Source: Isurus oxyrinchus
Lineage: Eukaryota
DNA: 64,000 nt
NCBI GenBank assembly: GCA_026770705.1
Contig: JANJGN010000140.1
Location: 558,001-622,000, forward strand
Direction: 5' to 3'
Below are positions 7,174-39,212 of the stretch, in pieces (the stretch's first letter is position 1; each line of letters opens with the position of its first letter). The notes below the pieces were generated by a model that saw nothing but the letters and a program-made list of their open reading frames with translations, was not told the origin of the DNA and did not search any database. A program made the translations under genes and the position numbers.

Positions 7174-7713
7174 ATGACACCTGTTGAGCTGTTCCAGATC
7201 TCCTTTGTAATAGGTATACAGGGACATGTGAACCCTGTGTTGATGTGACTTATCATTCTTCCCCTTTTAATCTGTAAGTATTAAAATGATTTCCTTTCTC
7301 TGGTGTAAATTATCCAAACGCCCCTTATAATAGTTATACCGCAATTGTGGACTGGAATGCTCGTAATCACTAAGTGTGTTAACCATTGTTTTCTATATTA
7401 TTTTACAGGTAGAACCCGAGGGAGTTCGGTAGTGCAGAGATAACATGAGTTGAAGGTACATGAGGAAGATAATCCGCAATTGAACTGTGAGTGCAACTCC
7501 AGTTCTGATGGATCCAGGTTGCTACTGGTACCGGCTGCACCCGAACCAGGCATCCCTTTTTCTGTTGTACCATGATAAAACCAGGCGCAGGGATGCCGAG
7601 TTTGCGAACGGAAAATTCGATGCTCGTCATTTCCGTCATTATCAAGTTTTTCGTTTGCCAATTTCTATAGCGGAGCCTAAAGACAGCGCCATCTATTTCT
7701 GCAGATTGAGGAT
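7174..7713 (+). pseudogene. TCR alpha/delta V pseudogene (putative leader 7174-7213, V exon 7409-7713)
   Basis: Leader MTPVELFQISFVIG with GT donor; TTTTACAG acceptor; exon GRTRGSSVVQR*HELKVHEEDNPQLNC, frameshift, then GCYWYRLHPNQ...EPKDSAIYFCRLR; followed by an RSS. Confidence 0.85.
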
Positions 7714-9077: not shown

Positions 9078-9530
9078 ATGAGGCTTATGCCGCATCCTCA
9101 TCTGATTTTATTGTGGCTGATGTTCGGTGGGTGCAGCCAGATCATTTTATCTGTTTGCAGTTATATGATGTTAATAGACTTTTAAACTCAGTATTGCATT
9201 CAGCTTTTGCTTACGTTTTATTTCAGGTGTGATTCAGACAGATTCTGTGTCCCAACCTCAGACCACACTGCGTGTTACTGAAGGAGACAGCAAGAAAATA
9301 GACTGTAGCTACACAACAAATCACGGTAATCCCGGCCTGTACTTGGGCAGACAGCACACGAACCAGGCTCCGCATTTTATTTTGTATCGAGATAGAAGCA
9401 GTAAAAAAGATGCAGATTTTACCAAAGAGAAATTCGAGGCAGGTCAGACTAACGAAGGAAAGTCATTTCCTCTAACGATCACTCGAGCAGAAATCCAGGA
9501 GACCGCCGTATGTTTCTGCGCGCTGAGGAA
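9078..9530 (+). CDS. TCR alpha/delta V segment, open frame but non-canonical (leader 9078-9126, V exon 9227-9530)
   Basis: Leader MRLMPHPHLILLWLMFG with GT donor and TTTCAG acceptor in phase 1; exon VIQTDSVSQPQTTLRVTEGDSKKIDCSY...LYLGRQ...KSFPLTITRAEIQETAVCFCALR has no stops; conserved Trp replaced by Leu. Confidence 0.85.
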
Positions 9531-14370: not shown

Positions 14371-14409
14371 GGTTTCTGTACCAGCTCTTCATTGAACTGT
14401 GAGACTGTG
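14371..14409 (-). promoter_or_regulatory. 23-RSS of minus-strand V pseudogene
   Basis: CACAGTC + 23 bp + ACAGAAACC on the minus strand. Confidence 0.75.
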
Positions 14410-14706
14410 GCGCAGAGATAGGCAGCAGTGTCTGTAACCCGAGCGCCTCCCAGTCACGGCACGGAGTTTGTTGCCTCCCTCGGTTGAAGCAGTGATCATC
14501 TCATGTTGGTCAGTTCCTCTTGTGGCCATCAATAGATGCTGGGCGCGTGGAGAGAGGGGTTGGTCGGTGGTAGGGGGGCGTGGGTTGGGCTGGGGGAGGG
14601 GGCTGATTCGGAATCCGTCTGCACCAACGCACGATGTCAAACGCAATGGTGATGGAGAACTTCATGGATATGATTCCCGCTTCTGCTGGAAAACAGCAGA
14701 AGCACT
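14410..14706 (-). pseudogene. TCR V pseudogene (inverted relative to neighbours)
   Basis: TTTACAG acceptor; fragments IVRWCRRIPNQP (WYRQ-like) and ARVTDTAAYLCA directly before the RSS; frameshifts and a C-rich insertion. Confidence 0.7.
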
Positions 14707-17416: not shown

Positions 17417-18289
17417 ATGTCTCCTGTTGCTTTCTATTTATTCCTCACAGCAGCAGCTCTTTTCACTGGTAGATTCATAAATTGTACAACTCTGCGAGTC
17501 ACATCTTTACCATTCCCTACATTCAATCGGACAGTTCGATTAACAGGTGGTAAAAATATGTTGATCCCAAATGAGAAAATCATCTGGATCCACTTTGTCG
17601 CTGCACGGTAGTAGGAAAGCTACCCGAATGAATGAGGCTGGAAGAGTTAAAGTGAGGCTACGGGCCCCGCCGGTGTCGGAGACGGACTTTGACAAATACC
17701 AAAGCTTTAAACTCACCGAGAGTTTTCACTTTCCCTTCAAATTACAGGAAACGAAGCTGAGGACGTGATTTCGATAGAAGGAACCGAATGTTCATTGAAG
17801 GAAGTTTTATTTATTCGGTCCAAGCACCTTCCGATTACAGCCACTGAGTGGTGGGGTATATATTTGTGTTTAGCTCCTCCGATTCATTTCTCAGGTTATT
17901 GTCCAGGGCGATGATCCTATTAAAGCGCATGAACAAAGTGAAATGATATCGTTTAATTTAATGTTACTCTTGGCTCTTACAGGACATTGTCGAGGAGATT
18001 CCGTTTCACAGGCACCGCCTGCAGTCACAGTGAGTGAAGGAGACAATGTTCGGTTGTTCTGTAATTATACAGCTACATACAGCAACGATCTCAACTTATT
18101 CTGATATCGTCAGCATCCCAGCGGATCCATGGAGTAGCTGTTGCTGAGGACTAGATACACCGAGAACAAAGAGAGATTTCCTGGGGACCGTTTTTCAGCG
18201 GAGCTCAACGATTCGATCGGCACCGTCCCGCTTAAAGTGTCTGAAACAGAACTGGCAGACTCCGCGGTGTATTACTGCGCACTGAGACT
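17417..18289 (+). pseudogene. TCR alpha/delta V pseudogene (leader 17417-17468, V exon 17983-18289)
   Basis: Leader MSPVAFYLFLTAAALFTG; exon HCRGDSVSQAPPAVTVSEGDNVRLFCNY...LF*YRQHPSGSME*LL...ELADSAVYYCALR; two in-frame stops (TGA 18102 at the conserved Trp, TAG 18135) and no frameshift. Confidence 0.92.
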
Positions 18290-25759: not shown

Positions 25760-26037
25760 GCAGATGAAGTGCTGCAGTCGCCGGTTTCCAAAACAGTCGA
25801 GCCGGGAGATCCGGCGCAGTTTTATTGTAGCTACACCAGCTCGGAGATATCCGCCTTCCACTGGTCCGGGGTGAGTCGAATGGACAGCTGGAGTGGATCA
25901 TGAGCAGCACAGGAAACGGAAAAGATGTGGTCGGGCAATTGAAAATTGAACTTGAAATCGCCGAGAAGACGGGCTATTTCGCTTTCAGAAGGACGAAGAT
26001 GTCGGACTCCGCCGCCTATTTCTGTGTAATCCAGGCA
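25760..26037 (+). pseudogene. TCR alpha-like V pseudogene
   Basis: DEVLQSPVSKTVEPGDPAQFYCSYTSSEISAFHW, frameshift, then GQLEWIM...TKMSDSAAYFCVIQ; nonamer ACAAAACCC at 26069 but heptamer disrupted. Confidence 0.8.
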
Positions 26038-28479
26038 ACCATTGTAACAGCAATAGCAACCCCGCTGTACAAAACCCTGCCCTCGGGAGAGACAAACTCT
26101 GCTTCACAAAGATCAGCCATGACATTATTCTTAATAATACAAGTGCCCTTTGTGTTAGACAATGAGGATTTACACATATCATTGCCCCCTAAAGCATATT
26201 GGTAAAATTGTATTGAAGAAACATTTCATTCCGCCCATGAGTTTCTGCTGATGTTTATGCTCCACACGAACCTTCTCCCACACGACCTGATCTAATACCA
26301 TCAGCGCATTATTTTTCACTTCACCCTAGGTTTTTACTTAGCTTCTATTTAAATACATTCACAGTTATTGCTTCAGCCAACCCGGGTGTATCGAGGTCCC
26401 ATTCCAACCAGGCACTGGTTTAATAAATGTATGCTTAATCCTTTGGTGGAATTTATCGGTGAAAATTTGACAGTTATGGTTTCTGGTTTTGGACTCCCAC
26501 GGGCAGAAACCTTGCTCCAACATTATCGAAATCTTTCATGACTTTAAAGAACTCTCTTGTGTCACCGTTCAGCACAGCTTTTTACAGAAAAGAGCCCAGC
26601 CTGTTCAACCTTTCCTGATAGTTAAAACCCGTCAGTTATGTTGTCATCCTTGTATTTTCTTTACATGTGAACCTGTGAACGCGCCATATCGATGTTGAGC
26701 CAAACAAAAGCAACACCTGTGAGACATTTGAAGGCCAGTTAGAAAGTTGTCCCGTTGTTATTGAGCGGGCCTCTCTCTGGACAATATGTAAGTGATGTTA
26801 CAACCTGTACTACAGCTGACCACTGCTTCTGGCCGCGAATGTGTTTTGTTCAATTAATTCACAAGCTGTAGGCGTCGTTGGTAAGACCAATATTTATTTT
26901 TGATCTCTAATTTCTTTTCCAACAACTGAATGGATTGATAGGGCATTTCAGAGGGCAGTCAGTAGTGAACTATGTCCCTGTACACACATAAATACAGGAC
27001 TGGATATGGCTCGTAAATTTATTTAACTGAAGGGTGGTTGGTTTTAACGACTAACCAGTGGTTTCGTGGGATTCACTAACAATCATGATGGTCTTTTTTT
27101 CACGTTCAGATGCATATGCTTAACTTAACTTGTGTTTCCAGCCTGGTGACATTTCATCCGATGCTTCTGGAACATTCGCCCAGACACGTAAATGCGTAGT
27201 TCAGTAACATAAGCACTATGTGTCAATGGCGATGCTGTTATTGTTCAACCACGTGGTTCAGTGTTAATATTCACGTCCCTGAGTCAGGTGATCTTGGGTT
27301 CAAGGCCCATTCCCCAATACTGAGCTCAAAATCTCGAGCCCAATACCGAGGGAGTGTTGAACTGTCGGAAGTGCCTTACTCAAACAACGTCAAATTCGAA
27401 TGTCTGCCCACTCAGGTGGACTTAAAATATCCGTTGCACTATTTCTAAGAAGAACAGGTCTGTTCTTGCTGGTATCCTGTCTAATGTTTATCTCTCGTGA
27501 AACATTACTAAAGAAAAAAACATCTGGTCATTATCACATTGATCCTTGTAGGATGTTGTTGTGGGTAATTGGTTCTCTGTTTCCTACATCGGTGTCTACA
27601 CTTCAGTGGCTGTACGGATATTTGGCACGTGATGAGGTTGTATAAATTGCTGTACAAATGTAAATCTGCAGTTTCTAATTGTTATTATTTCACATGTTAT
27701 CATCCTCGTCAAAGGCTCCTTGGTGCATTAGCACACTTGCTCCTTTCCATTCCTCCCTCCTCACTGTAGTTGGGCGGTAGTTCGAAATTCTCTCCTGGTT
27801 CTGTTCAAAGTCCGTTTTTATCGGGAACTCCAAACTCTTCCAGGTGCAGTAAAGCATCGAGCCCAGATAGGGAATCTCAGATCGCCATGAGTATAGCAAC
27901 AGCACCCCTGTACTGTCAGGTGGATAACCACAAGGGCATTAGAATAATTACATTTACAGTCTTGGTAACGATGTTTAAAACTGGTCCCCATATTTCTTTC
28001 TCCACACTGAGGCGATTAATCCACTTCCTATAAATAGGTTGGTCCTGATTTTACAATAGAGGAAGAAACATCCCAACGCTAATGCATCGAGTCACTCAGA
28101 AGGCAGAATCCCACCGTGCAATCTCTGCACCCTGATTTAACCACCTCCTTCCTCTCCATGTGCAAAGTAATGTCACTAAAGCCACTTTTGGGCCGTTTTT
28201 TTCCTGTTAGATTCAGAACAGCATATTCTGTCTGCGCTCTTATTAGATGAAAGAGAAATGGTATTGACAGAATTATCTAGGCAATCCACCACTCAGCTAT
28301 TAGTTTTCAAACAGCGGAAACATTAGGGCTGTATGCAGATCACATTATAGAAATTTTCAAAGTCTGTGGGGCATTAGAACTTGAGGGAAGAAAGGGTCAA
28401 AGGATTTCGGAGCATCCGTTTCTTTTTCTTCTGAACACAAAGAGGGTTATGGTGTGACGAAGGGATTAATAAATTATGT

Positions 28480-35000: not shown

Positions 35001-35480
35001 AGTTAAGGGGGAACCAGTGCTTTTCAGGGGAACAGTAGTATTCCCTTGCTTTTAGGCTCTATGTCGCTGTTATGATGTCGATAATCCCGGATGTTTTAGC
35101 ACCACTTTCTCAGGCTGTCAGGCCACCTTCAACCATTTATGCCCAAAAAGTGCATACGCTTGTTGAAGAATGGATAATTGAATGAATTATTTTGGCGGGA
35201 GTACTGTAGGCGGCTCGAAGTATAAAAATATTAAAGGCTTTGCAGAGCCAGAAAGAACGTGCGAACTTGATGTGTTTAACGATTTTATTCTGTGACACAA
35301 AATTGTAAGGTCATTTGAAAATACATTCGTAGAGTGATTGCCTCCCCCCACACCCCTTCTCTGTGTGTGTGCATATGCGTGTGCGTGTCTGTGTGTGTGT
35401 ATATACGTGTGTGTGTGTATGCTCCTTTCAACTTAAACCCGAAAATGGACAATTATTTGAACTCTTTCTGTGTCTTGTAT

Positions 35481-35845
35481 CACTGTGTCTGTAATCCCAC
35501 CATGTTCAAGTTTTTGTACAGCTCTCTCCGTGCTCTATATCACTGTGTGTCTATAATCCCAACATGTTCATGGTTTTTGTATAGCTCTCTCCGTGCTCTG
35601 TATCACTGTGTGTCTGTAATCCCAACATGTTCATGGTTTTTGTACAGCTCTCTCCGTGCTCTGTATCACTGTTTGTCTGTAATCCCAGCATGTTAAGTTT
35701 TTGTACAGCTCTCTCCGCGCTCTGTATCACTGTTTGTCTGTAATCCCAGCATGTTAAGTTTTTGTACAGCGTCCTCCGGTTTCTGTATCACTGTGCACCA
35801 TGTTGAGGTTTTTGTACAGCTCCCTCTGTGTTCTGTATCACTGTG
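35481..35845 (-). repeat. Tandem array of 23-RSSs (50-63-bp units): six complete RSSs plus one extra heptamer
   Basis: Heptamers start (plus coordinates) at 35839, 35789, 35728, 35667, 35604, 35541 and 35481; nonamers ACAAAAAC(C/T) at 35807, 35757, 35696, 35635, 35572 and 35509, each exactly 23 bp from its heptamer. Confidence 0.95.
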
Positions 35846-36145
35846 CTGTGCGCCGACTCAGTTCACAGTAATAAACAGCGGAGTCGCTTAGTTGTAGTTC
35901 GGAGATCGTTAACCGGCTGATTTTCTCGGTAGAATCGATAGAAGCAGAAATTCTCCCCCCGGCAGCGTTTTCTTTATTCTCCTCTCCTGAAGTGCGTCTC
36001 TGAAGAAGGTATTCCGGAGCCTGTCCTGGGGACTGACGGTACCAGTGTACTGTGCAGAACCCTGAATATTCACAGTTTAAAGTAACGGTGTCACCGACAG
36101 CAGACGTTGGTAGAGGCGAAATCCTGGAAATTATGGAACTGGAAT
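35846..36145 (-). CDS. TRDV: Leaderless supporting TCR-delta V segment of NAR-TCR
   Basis: CCTACAG acceptor; open frame (D)SSSIISRISPLPTSAVGDTVTLNCEYSGFCTVHWYRQSPGQAPEYLL...RLTISELQLSDSAVYYCELSRRT; extra CDR1 Cys (36054-36056); no leader recognised; in phase with the upstream J donor; perfect 23-RSS at 35807-35845. Missed by the ORF track because it has no ATG. Confidence 0.92.
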
Positions 36146-37770
36146 CTGTAGGATAAGAAAATGAACTATATCTTTTTTATTCAGCCACTGTTTGTCCAGG
36201 AGAATCTGTCAATCGCGTGAATAGCTCTGCTTTTTGCAGTAATTTTATTTGCTGGAAGCCTATTTGAACCGTGTTCACTGTTATGAAAATATGACCACAT
36301 GGGGAATGAGGTGATATTTTATTTTACATCGCGAGTCCTTCTGATCAGCACCGGAATGTCTGAATTGGTGTTGGGGATAGAATCATTAGTGACTTTCAAA
36401 CGTGTAATGGGTCTGTGCTGGAAATGTAAATACAAATATAGAGCTCTAGATTAAAATCATGGGTCGTGGGAACATTTGTATTGCACTTTTAAAGGATCAG
36501 CGCCAACACGAATGGCCGAATGTCATCCTTCCATGCTGGATAATTCTATGAATTATATTACATTCCGGTTTCTATTTTCCTTGGCGAGAAACAAACACGA
36601 GGGAGCATTTTATGTTCAGTGAGGCAACCAGTTTCCAAAAAAAAACATGTTTGTCGGAGAGAAACACAGCTGCGTGGCATCACTGCGCACAGCAAGAGCC
36701 AACACCGATTGGGCCAAACCAAGAATGAGCATCTCTCGTGGTGAAAGGTCAATCATTTACTGCGGAATTTCTATCTGCCTTTTGCTCTATTTCTTTATGT
36801 TCTATCAATAGGGTCCTATTTTCTCCAGTTCAGCTTAATATCAAATAGGTGCAATTAATTTTATTTTATTTCTTTAATTTCACATTCCCTTTATTTCACA
36901 TTTATTTTGTGCTGTTTGCGTTTTTTGCAACCGTGGGAACTTGTCCCAATCTCTCTGAGTTGTCGGCTGGGTTTAGTTATTCAGTTTCCGCAGTGGTTTT
37001 CCTGTTACTCACTGGGAACTGCCTCTTCCGGCTCTCTGACAATTTCAATTCTTTCCGCAAGTTAACTGATTCTCTCTCCCGGGTTCACTGGGCGGAGTTT
37101 TCTCACAATTTTACATTATTGAGGAAGAAGAATGCGGAAGAGGAATGGGCCATTCAGCCTGTGTATATAATCAGTTCCAAACCTTCACATTTCGTTCTGA
37201 GGACGGAAAAGGAGGAAAGTGATTGGTTCTATAAAGGCAATTGAAAGACATGGTGGGGACAATGTCACTAATTTTAGTCACTGATTGTCAAATCTAGAAT
37301 TCAACCTGGACCCACATCAGAATCTCATATATCTGAGGCCCCTTGTGTCACTCTCCCGTTTTACTTCCGGGTCAGGTCTGGAATGAGCCGCTGCAGGTAT
37401 CCGAACTGGCCGCAGTTGTGCTGAGTTTATTCACCCGGTACCTCATTCACATTGCGCGGCTCGGACTGCAATCTGCTGCCCAGGAGAGAGCTCTGTGACC
37501 CCGCTCCCGGGCTCTAAGGGACAGACAGAGCTCTCACAGTTAACACCGGGTGTGGAGTCCCGAGTGTTGACAACCTGTGCTCATTAAAAGCGATTCAGAG
37601 TGTGAGAGTCCGTGATGTTGATCGTGTCCCCAATGTTCCCGTTAAACCGATAATGCCCCAGATTCCGTCAACTCCCACATCCCACCCAAACTCTACTGAT
37701 ATCAGTAATAAACTGACGGTGAACATTACCCGGGACAGGCTGTAATCCGGCGGGGTTTGGAGTCACTTAC

Positions 37771-37820
37771 CGGCTGTGACAGTCACCACCGTCCCGGATC
37801 CATCCGCATAATAATATTTC
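37771..37820 (-). CDS. NARTCR: NAR-TCR J segment
   Basis: KYYYADGSGTVVTVTA followed by phase-1 GTAAGT donor (37765-37770); IgNAR-like GxGTVVTV. Confidence 0.92.
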
Positions 37821-37859
37821 CACAGTGACTCCGCTCTCAGCGTCCCCGGTACAACAACC
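37821..37859 (+). promoter_or_regulatory. 23-RSS of NAR-TCR J
   Basis: CACAGTG + 23 bp + ACAACAACC, facing the D. Confidence 0.9.
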
Positions 37860-38173
37860 ACCGACACCTCAACCTGCCGAGAAATCATCATCAGACAGTA
37901 GAAACTGCCCACTTATTCAACGCATTGAAATAAATAAACAATATTCCATGTTTTAAAGTCTCTGTCGGTTCAAAAGGTTCTTTGTGAGGCCCTGAGCTCT
38001 GAGTAAATGGTCCCGGGGACGAGATGTTCGCTTCATATAAAGCGAGAAAAATATTTAAAAAGATAACTGAATGATGGAAATTACAATGAAATGTAACCAG
38101 ATTCCAGCGATACTAACATCAACCCGACAATTTACTATCCGGACCAGGAGAATTTATATTGTGACCGTACAGA

Positions 38174-38246
38174 TGTATTTGCTCAGGTCTCTCCCACTGT
38201 GACTTCCCCATCCACCCACACAGTGTTACAAGTCAGTATAAAATCC
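38174..38246 (-). other. NARTCR: NAR-TCR D segment (17 nt, 38202-38218) flanked by two 12-RSSs
   Basis: Plus strand TGTATTTGC-12-CACTGTG [ACTTCCCCATCCACCCA] CACAGTG-12-ATAAAATCC; minus-strand D TGGGTGGATGGGGAAGT is open in all three frames (WVDGE, GWMGK, GGWGS). Confidence 0.9.
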
Positions 38247-38574
38247 CCCGGGTACTTGGTGCGATGTGGGGACATTAGGTTAAACACCGTGGACTGCGGT
38301 TCCCTGTTGCAGCTGTTAGACCAGGATCACATCTGGTGTTAGGTGTTTGTAACTGGGCTCAATCATTCCCAATCCCCATTCACTGACACCAATCCCGGGA
38401 AAGACATCACCATCCGCACACACTCGGCAGTTATGAAGCTCAAGATGTTAACGGCAATAATCCAATCTTATTATAAACGAGACTGTGGGGCAATCGGTGT
38501 GAGGCGGATCTGTGGGCGTTTAACGACATATTACCTCCGCTTTTTCATTTGTTTCTGTGATAATCTGCAATGAG

Positions 38575-38612
38575 AGTTTTTGCATTGCGGGAAGCCGAGA
38601 CCCATCACTGTG
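38575..38612 (-). promoter_or_regulatory. RSS of NAR-TCR V (22-bp spacer)
   Basis: CACAGTG + 22 bp + GCAAAAACT. Confidence 0.9.
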
Positions 38613-38895
38613 TATCTGTAGTACTGAGCTTTACAGTAATAGGTGGCGGTGTCCTCAACTCTCAATTCCCGAATTTCCAGCGAAAATGTATTTTGTGCTT
38701 TATTCACCGACACAACAAATCTCCCCCCGCTGGAGATCCGCTCCCGCTCTGTCCTGGTCTGGGTTTGCTTGAAGAAATGTCCCGTTTGGAAATAATGCCC
38801 CGAAGCACCGGAGAAAACACAGGTGATGGTGAGAGACTGACACTCCTTCCTGGTCACCGCTGCCGGGGTCTGTGTCACTGACTGACTGAAAGAGT
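38613..38895 (-). CDS. NARTCR: NAR-TCR V exon (IgNAR/VNAR-like domain)
   Basis: SFSQSVTQTPAAVTRKECQSLTITCVF...ERERISSGGRFVVSVNKAQNTFSLEIRELRVEDTATYYCKAQYYR; VNAR-type CDR2 deletion, ISxGGR motif, YYCKA, and extra FR1 Cys. Confidence 0.93.
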
Positions 38896-39043
38896 CTGGA
38901 AATTAAAGAGAGAGAGTTCAATGGACCATCAGAACCGAACCACGGAACAGGGTTAAAACCCGAGACAGTGTCTGTAATTGGGATGGACTCAGACAGCTTT
39001 CTATTGAATCCACACAATGTCGGTTTGTTTGACCTGTACTCAC

Positions 39044-39086
39044 GGGGTAAACAGACACACAGCGTGAAAACAAGGAGGATTCCCAT
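39044..39086 (-). CDS. NARTCR: NAR-TCR V leader exon
   Basis: MGILLVFTLCVCLP + phase-1 GTGAGT donor, joining in frame to the exon at 38895. Confidence 0.9.
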
Positions 39087-39110
39087 CGCTCTGCTGCCTG
39101 GAGCTGAGGG

Positions 39111-39212
39111 TTTATATGACGGGGAGCTGGAGACTGCAGCCCTGGACTGCACTGGGAGACCGGACCTCAGAGCTGAACTGAAATACTTTCGCGGGGCCGA
39201 GTTGATTTGCAC
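39111..39212 (-). promoter_or_regulatory. NAR-TCR V promoter: TATAAA (39111-39116) and octamer-like GTGCAAAT (39205-39212)
   Basis: TATA box 25 bp upstream of the ATG; octamer has one mismatch to ATGCAAAT. Confidence 0.5.

What the first reader, a model, noticed from the sequence alone, without database searches (positions are those of the whole stretch)
35846..39086. Complete, apparently functional NAR-TCR cassette (L-V-D-J spliced to leaderless V-delta)
Seen: all segments are open, RSSs obey the 12/23 rule (V22-12D12-23J), and splice phases match (leader C|AC, J G|AT). The predicted chain is MGILLVFTLCVCLPHSFS-QSVTQ...YYCKAQYYR-[D]-KYYYADGSGTVVTVTA-DSSSIIS...YYCELSRRT-[D-delta J-delta C-delta]. 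Established: NAR-TCR is the doubly rearranging, two-V-domain TCR-delta chain of cartilaginous fish. The system is known, but this 3.2-kb single-D germline unit is easily missed by annotation and is the only clearly canonical-looking unit in the window.
Basis: partly seen in the sequence, partly recalled or inferred. Interest (0 to 1): 0.72.

Follow-up and report, generated by a model that had tools for sequence, protein, structure and literature searches.

The report
Shark double-V T-cell receptor cassette
This is an intact gene cassette of the known shark T-cell receptor that carries an antibody-like domain on top of an ordinary one (NAR-TCR), and some sister cassettes in the same genome hold extra pre-joined domains with dead leaders that would likely stack into receptors with three to five variable domains.

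Summary
Observation confirmed. On the minus strand lie an open leader, a VNAR-like V (22-RSS), one D (12/12), a J (23-RSS) and a leaderless V with a 23-RSS, all in splice phase 1. The published NAR-TCR hallmarks are met: a-b-loop Cys, no WYRK Trp, and a leaderless supporting V with CDR1 Cys. It is one of about 140 such V copies in this shark genome, so the unit itself is an ordinary member of a known system. No transcript of it was seen, and no constant gene was found on its contig.

The family gave more. On contig C26, 14 of 75 NAR-V segments are fully V-D-J-joined in the germline and 19 are V-D-joined. The fully joined exons sit between a first NAR unit and the supporting V: 11 of 14 are open, 13 of 14 have dead leaders, 14 of 14 carry a CDR3 cysteine, and dN/dS is about 0.5. 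They likely act as invariant internal stalk domains, giving chains with 3-5 V domains (untested).

This scan noted joined exons before on other DNA of this genome (e1-9337562, e1-9506562), read there as a ready-made receptor.

The parts
39111..39117 (-). TATA-like element about 25 nt upstream of the ATG (promoter role inferred)
   Evidence: kept in 7 of 7 rearranging units aligned
39044..39086 (-). Leader exon, 43 nt, phase 1, GTGAGT donor
38613..38895 (-). NAR-TCR V exon: open, VNAR-like, a-b-loop Cys (KEC), Phe in place of the WYRK Trp
38575..38612 (-). RSS of the NAR V, 22-bp spacer (23 class)
   Evidence: 22-bp spacer is the rule in paralogs
38219..38246 (+). 5' 12-RSS of the D segment
38202..38218 (-). 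Single D segment, 17 nt, open in three frames
38174..38201 (-). 3' 12-RSS of the D segment (nonamer with 3 mismatches)
37821..37859 (+). 23-RSS of the J segment
37771..37820 (-). NAR-type J segment (DGSGT motif), phase-1 GTAAGT donor
36146..37770 (-). Predicted J-to-V intron, 1625 nt, no leader exon found; about 1.3 kb shorter than in the nearest paralogs
35846..36145 (-). Leaderless supporting V (V-delta type): open, WYRQ, extra Cys in CDR1, CDR1 two residues shorter than in most paralogs
35807..35845 (-). Perfect 23-RSS of the supporting V
35449..35845 (-). Array of 7 tandem RSS-like units, 50-63 bp apart; 4 keep CAC heptamer, 23 spacer and a good nonamer

Best explanation
The 3.2-kb unit is an intact germline NAR-TCR cassette that likely rearranges twice in a developing T cell and would yield a TCR-delta chain with a VNAR-like domain on top of a supporting V-delta. 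Shown in the DNA: all segments, signals and splice phases. Inferred from the 12/23 rule: RAG joins V(22)-D(12/12)-J(23) inside the cassette, and separately joins the supporting V (23) to a distant D(12/23)-J(12)-C module. Inferred from phases and from relatives' gene models: splicing runs leader to VDJ to supporting V-D-J to C. From the literature: the a-b-loop Cys of the NAR V bonds with the CDR1 Cys of the supporting V (putative), and the NAR V binds antigen unpaired while the supporting V pairs with TCR-gamma (working model).
For: Anatomy and RSS. VNAR as best single-domain match. Hallmarks of PMC1845163 all met. 144 of 150 listed genome matches to the V (54% identity or more) and 103 of 150 to the second V (69% or more) pair up as V-then-V cassettes. 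Relatives in sharks and rays, up to 91% identical (Cetorhinus P0003), are modelled with the same V-J/V junction, and P0012, P0014, P0026, P0027, P0029 and P0004 continue into a TCR-type constant region. A module of one D (12/23), at least 10 J (12-RSS) and one C lies among the cassettes on C26 and on C242. In one search one contig of a run guessed to be RNA starts aligning exactly at a paralogous NAR-V acceptor with 56 unaligned letters before it, and another one base into a paralogous supporting V: a weak hint that family members are spliced at these sites.
Against: No transcript of this unit was seen. The constant-region search scored 28 of 28 candidates and found matches only on C26 and C242, none on the window's contig C140, so cis linkage is not shown. 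Whether that C is delta or alpha rests only on the D in front of it; Pfam did not detect even that C exon, so a second C could not be excluded. Many paralogs are broken (19 of 40 unjoined V on C26), and the two nearest cassettes have lost the first canonical Cys of the supporting V, so intact appearance alone does not prove use. The gene models of relatives are predictions, several joining V to J through apparently false introns.
Confidence: 0.88

Rival explanations
1. The unit is a NAR-TCR cassette by descent but is not used: a recent duplicate that has not yet decayed, or one without access to D-J-C.
For: No C gene on C140; about half of the unjoined V copies on C26 are broken; the two nearest cassettes carry a Cys-to-Trp change in the supporting V; this unit has a shortened intron and a 2-residue shorter CDR1 in the supporting V.
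Against: Every signal and all Cys residues are intact. C140 repeats the cassette order and spacing of part of C26 (about 104 kb versus 105 kb between matching cassettes), so it likely belongs to the same locus.
Confidence: 0.1
2. The V-D-J is an IgNAR-type antibody cluster, or a conventional TCR V, and the second V is unrelated.
For: Best single-domain PDB matches are IgNAR V domains; cluster-type V-D-J arrangement.
Against: It lacks the WYRK Trp and has the a-b-loop Cys, which PMC1845163 gives as NAR-TcRV marks. No constant-like match in the window with five query proteins. The second V follows the J in nearly all paralogous clusters. Six more distant matches (43-47%) on C38, C42 and C100 are the likelier true IgNAR V (label inferred).
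Confidence: 0.02
3. About the joined exons in sister cassettes (not the window unit): they encode a ready-made, fixed receptor, with the leader of the first unit spliced straight onto the joined exon.
For: RefSeq models P0005, P0006 and P0013 place a leader directly on a joined exon. 3 of 25 joined exons keep ATG and GT in their own leader. Earlier scan notes read them this way.
Against: 22 of 25 own leaders carry a hard lesion. At the N-terminus the conserved CDR3 Cys would have no partner: these exons have no CDR1 Cys, and the a-b-loop Cys lies in a different loop at the other end of a V fold (geometry from general V-domain knowledge). Up to three joined exons stand in tandem.
Confidence: 0.25
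4. About the joined exons in sister cassettes: they are relics of a germline RAG event, skipped in splicing and kept open only by recent duplication and gene conversion.
For: 6 of 25 full-length joined exons are broken and 3 more have lost acceptor and most of V. dN/dS was computed on open copies only and on non-independent pairs. No transcript seen.
Against: dN/dS 0.46 (bootstrap 0.30-0.74) among 10 copies that share a stop in leader codon 4, with flanking introns diverged 0.15-0.19 against dN 0.069. Acceptor AG and donor GTAAG intact in 25 of 25. The same CDR3s stand in Carcharodon and Cetorhinus models.
Confidence: 0.2

Closest known systems
NAR-TCR, the doubly rearranging TCR-delta of cartilaginous fish (Criscitiello et al. 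2006; paper not held, features read in passages of PMC1845163, PMC6795676, PMC3149040, PMC12227049)
   Same: Leader plus VNAR-like V with a-b-loop Cys and no WYRK Trp; own D and J; leaderless supporting V with CDR1 Cys and its own RSS.
   Different: Nothing of substance for the window unit. In sister cassettes, 1-3 germline-joined NAR exons lie between the first unit and the supporting V, and many first units are V-D-joined; I found neither described in the papers I could read.
Marsupial TCR-mu (PMC7615758, PMC3457774; passages)
   Same: A rearranging N-terminal antibody-like V sits on an invariant, germline-joined supporting V exon; this is the closest analogue of the joined exons in the sister cassettes.
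   Different: TCR-mu has one joined V, its own C in each cluster, VH-like domains, and is thought to have arisen by retrotransposition. The shark exons are NAR-type, keep the leader intron, come in 1-3 copies and sit on top of a further rearranging V.
IgNAR V clusters and germline-joined shark Ig genes (PMC3149040 passages; details recalled)
   Same: VNAR-like domain, V-D-J minicluster, germline V-D and V-D-J joins.
   Different: No Ig constant exon follows; one D instead of 2-3; the J leads to a supporting V.

Membership tests
NAR-TCR | N-terminal V related to IgNAR V | tested here: met
   best single-domain matches are VNAR structures (7spp E 1e-19, 8hgi, 7spo)
NAR-TCR | NAR V has a leader, a Cys in the a-b loop and no Trp in the WYRK motif | tested here: met
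   (leader exon; KEC; HFFKQ); features from PMC1845163
NAR-TCR | Supporting V-delta lacks a leader and has a Cys in CDR1 | tested here: met
   no leader candidate in the 1625-nt intron; CEYSGFCTVHWY
NAR-TCR | Two separate rearranging units with compatible RSS | tested here: met
   (22 / 12-12 / 23; supporting V 23); D(12/23)-J(12)-C module
NAR-TCR | Lies in cis with D-J-C-delta | tested here: inconclusive
   C only on C26 and C242, not on C140; delta identity inferred from the D; Pfam test had no power
NAR-TCR | Spliced transcript NAR VDJ - V-delta DJ - C | tested here: inconclusive
   one search gave only short fragments of paralogs; no read of this unit was examined
NAR-TCR | Interdomain disulfide; pairing with TCR-gamma | not testable with these tools
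   models give no coordinates here
IgNAR | J followed by Ig constant exons; WYRK Trp kept | tested here: not met
   the next exon is a V; Trp replaced by Phe
TCR-mu | VH-like V, germline-joined second V, own C per cluster | tested here: not met
   window unit: second V has an RSS and no J. Sister cassettes work like TCR-mu in having a joined supporting exon but are NAR-type

The most novel reading that the evidence does not exclude
Lamniform sharks have stacked NAR-TCR cassettes. After a germline V-D-J join, the joined NAR exon lost its leader, gained a CDR3 cysteine and was duplicated in tandem. It now serves as an invariant stalk between the rearranging NAR V and the supporting V-delta, each domain's a-b-loop Cys bonding the Cys at the top of the next. 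This gives TCR-delta chains with three, four or five V domains, longer than any described TCR chain, and a second case, after marsupial TCR-mu, of a germline-joined V used as a structural domain.
Probability: 0.55. Interest if true: 0.8.

Novelty: new member of a known kind. Interest (0 to 1): 0.48.

Why it matters
The window unit is a clean germline example of NAR-TCR and matters little alone. The family matters more. [quoted passage not shown] If the leader-dead joined exons are spliced in, shark T cells carry single-domain binders on stalks of variable length. That bears directly on the open question of how NAR-TCR and TCR-mu reach native antigen, and one long-read thymus library would test it.

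Tried and rejected
Sequencing runs: no RNA holder listed for window 35800-39100. Laying 4 of the 10 listed runs (contigs guessed to be RNA, no listed share of the words) on a stacked paralog gave mostly repeat matches and no exon-to-exon joint among the rows shown; many rows were cut. The splice partner of the joined exon therefore stays unknown.

Structure: single-sequence fold of the tandem model P0001 failed (pLDDT 38). The alignment fold of P0013 (pLDDT 77) gave secondary structure only, and Foldseek returned generic scFv matches. PDB sequence search of the second V was dominated by scFvs and did not separate TCR from Ig V; that of the C exon gave only weak Ig C1 matches.

Second constant gene: Pfam scan of 61 of 85 candidate ORFs near the D-J-C module found none, but also missed the known C exon, so it has no power.

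Rejected idea: I first took the YTYKN-junction units (C26:29987221, 30013658, 30036268) for fully joined, leader-bearing first domains; one search showed them to be V-D-joined with a 12-RSS and separate J. The V-only tree did not recover the joined exons as one clade, so a single origin rests on the similar junction sequence alone.

Papers not held: Criscitiello 2006, Ott 2021 (14), Criscitiello 2010 (44), Deiss 2019 (68), PMC12010099. The PMC3964593 supplement gave 0 hits for NAR-TCR in machine-read text, which may miss what the PDF holds. These unseen texts may already describe cassette organisation or joined NAR exons.

Full report
1. Observation. Of 16 RSS hits with at most 3 mismatches on both strands of the window, 5 mark exactly these segment ends. 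The last RSS is the first of 7 tandem RSS-like units. The five other V-like segments found in the window are broken or degenerate.

2. What it is. The first V matches shark VNAR structures best among single domains, and both V exons pass Pfam V-set. PMC1845163 (passages) defines NAR-TcRV by a leader, an a-b-loop Cys and loss of the WYRK Trp, and its supporting V-delta by loss of the leader and a CDR1 Cys; all four hold here. A protein search gave 55 hits among 187 candidates, all named from sharks and rays, the closest 91% identical (Cetorhinus); their models join V-J to a second V at the same point, and six continue into a TCR-type constant region. These are gene predictions. The host is therefore likely a lamniform shark (inference). 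In the own genome, 150 of 699 candidates were scored for the first V; I took 144 of the 150 listed matches as family members and left out 6 at 43-47% identity on other contigs. For the second V I took 103 of 150 (69% or more). They pair up as cassettes over C26:23-40 Mb and several shorter contigs, including the window's C140. A D(12/23), at least 10 J(12) and one C lie among the cassettes on C26 and on C242; no C was found on C140.

3. How it most likely works. Shown: intact segments, signals and phases. Inferred: RAG joins V-D-J within the cassette and joins the supporting V to the distant D-J-C module; splicing then gives leader, NAR VDJ, supporting VDJ, C. The interdomain disulfide is called putative in PMC1845163, and unpaired antigen binding is the working model in PMC3457774 and PMC6795676 (passages). 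Against: no transcript of this unit was seen; linkage to C is not shown; 19 of 40 unjoined V copies on C26 are broken; and the two nearest cassettes have lost a canonical Cys in the supporting V. Confidence that the unit is a usable NAR-TCR cassette: 0.88.

4. What the family showed. A search with a joined junction scored 40 of 223 candidates; 28 spanned the V-J junction. They fall in 18 clusters: 17 end in a supporting V, and 14 begin with another NAR unit in the hit lists. Of 25 full-length joined exons, 19 are open and 6 broken; all 25 keep AG and GTAAG and the open ones are phase 1 at both ends. 22 of 25 have a hard lesion in their own leader (stop at codon 4, lost ATG, lost GT or replaced leader); 3 related copies keep ATG and GT but have an altered TATA and leader. 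Three more copies have lost acceptor and most of V. A census of C26 alone (75 NAR-V in the fetched stretches): 40 unjoined (21 open, 19 of these with intact leader), 19 V-D-joined (6 open, all 6 with leader), 14 fully joined (11 open, 10 of these with dead leader; 14 of 14 with a CDR3 Cys), 2 unclassified. Fisher p is 1e-5 for leader state in open unjoined versus open joined exons, but the copies are not independent. Of 12 joined-exon cassettes checked end to end, 5 have an intact unjoined first unit, open joined exon(s) and an open supporting V with its CDR1 Cys; 2 more have a V-D-joined first unit; 5 are damaged somewhere.

5. Selection and structure. Nei-Gojobori dN/dS over 17 unique open joined exons is 0.55 (bootstrap 0.39-0.81; framework 0.41) against 0.76 for 21 unique rearranging V. 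Among 10 copies sharing the leader stop it is 0.46 (0.30-0.74), with flanking introns diverged 0.15-0.19. Caveats: open copies only, non-independent pairs, possible gene conversion; the V-only tree does not give the joined exons as one clade. All 17 keep the a-b-loop Cys and have no CDR1 Cys. In an AlphaFold model of the Carcharodon homolog P0013 (36 sequences, pLDDT 77) the CDR3 Cys ends the F strand at the tip of the F-G hairpin and the a-b Cys lies in the loop before strand B; by general V-domain geometry these are opposite ends. So the CDR3 Cys has no partner inside the domain but would meet the a-b Cys of a domain stacked above, as the CDR1 Cys of the supporting V is thought to (inference). 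The C-G-S junction occurs in 4 of 74 retrieved proteins, all from Carcharodon or Cetorhinus; P0001 has two such domains in tandem before the supporting V, while P0005, P0006 and P0013 put a leader directly on one, and P0005's supporting V lacks the CDR1 Cys. The models thus cut both ways. My odds: stalk domains 0.55, ready-made receptor 0.25, skipped relics 0.20.

6. RNA. laid four coded runs on a stacked paralog. One contig starts aligning exactly at the NAR-V acceptor with 56 unaligned letters before it and another one base into the supporting V, but others cover intron or intergenic DNA, identities are about 90%, and RNA status is a guess. The upstream splice partner could not be read, so the key question is open.

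7. Comparison with what is known. The window unit is a member of NAR-TCR on every feature I could test. The joined exons work like the marsupial V-mu-j, an invariant germline-joined supporting exon, but are not TCR-mu. [quoted passage not shown] Seven searches and passages of PMC12227049, PMC5931798, PMC3149040 and PMC3964593 showed no description of joined or stacked NAR-TCR exons. The primary NAR-TCR papers (Criscitiello 2006 and 2010, Deiss 2019, Ott 2021) were not held and the PMC3964593 supplement gave no hit in machine-read text, so absence from print is not established. Two earlier notes of this scan saw joined exons on other pieces of this genome; I found them independently, before the look-up, and differ from e1-9337562 in reading them as internal domains. 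That germline-joined Ig genes occur in sharks is stated in PMC3149040 and PMC7615758; the label IgNAR for the six distant matches is my inference.

8. Verdict. The finding is real and correctly read: an intact cassette of a known system, of modest interest alone (about 0.25). The stacked, leader-dead joined exons in sister cassettes are a candidate new variant with a one-experiment test. Overall interest 0.48.

Noticed in passing
G000 C140:196035 (+); C26:29979862, 30006299, 30056133, 31159071, 35941916, 37899180, 37903919, 37909654, 38754809, 38760669, 38764002; also C151, C152, C210, C242: Fully germline-joined NAR V-D-J exons, 1-3 in tandem between a first NAR unit and the supporting V; mostly open, own leader mostly dead, CDR3 with a conserved Cys.
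   Followed up: yes
G000 C26 (19 of 75 NAR-V, e.g. 29842352, 29987221, 31103560, 31323219, 36381662); C242:510259, 516670, 533752, 540168: Germline V-D-joined NAR units with the D's 3' 12-RSS and a separate J; at least five different junctions on C26, so likely several independent joining events; 16 of 19 keep the leader, 6 of 19 are open.
   Followed up: partly
window 35845-35449 (-): Seven tandem RSS-like units behind the supporting V; 16 of 18 supporting V examined have two or more. Cutting at a downstream copy would leave an in-frame stop while the first RSS stays usable (inferred): a possible second-chance or RAG-recruiting device, unexplained.
   Followed up: partly
window about 7410-7713 (+), 9230-9530 (+), 14409-14700 (-), 17985-18289 (+), 25760-26040 (+): Five further TCR-like V segments, four with a recognisable 22/23-RSS; four have stops, frameshifts or are remnants, and the one near 9230-9530 is open but lacks the conserved Trp and Tyr motifs.
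   Followed up: partly
G000 C26:29899676-29928789 (-) and C242:590149-619365 (+): One D (12/23), at least 10 J (12-RSS) and one TCR-type C in the middle of a 17-Mb field of NAR-TCR cassettes in both orientations; delta or alpha identity not settled.
   Followed up: partly
G000 C242:499829-548988 (-): Several NAR V-D-J units, some V-D-joined or leaderless, share one supporting V (up to four per V).
   Followed up: no
protein P0002 (Heterodontus francisci model): Repeats the same V-J junction peptide twice in tandem before the supporting V; may be an independent case of tandem joined exons or a gene-model artefact.
   Followed up: no
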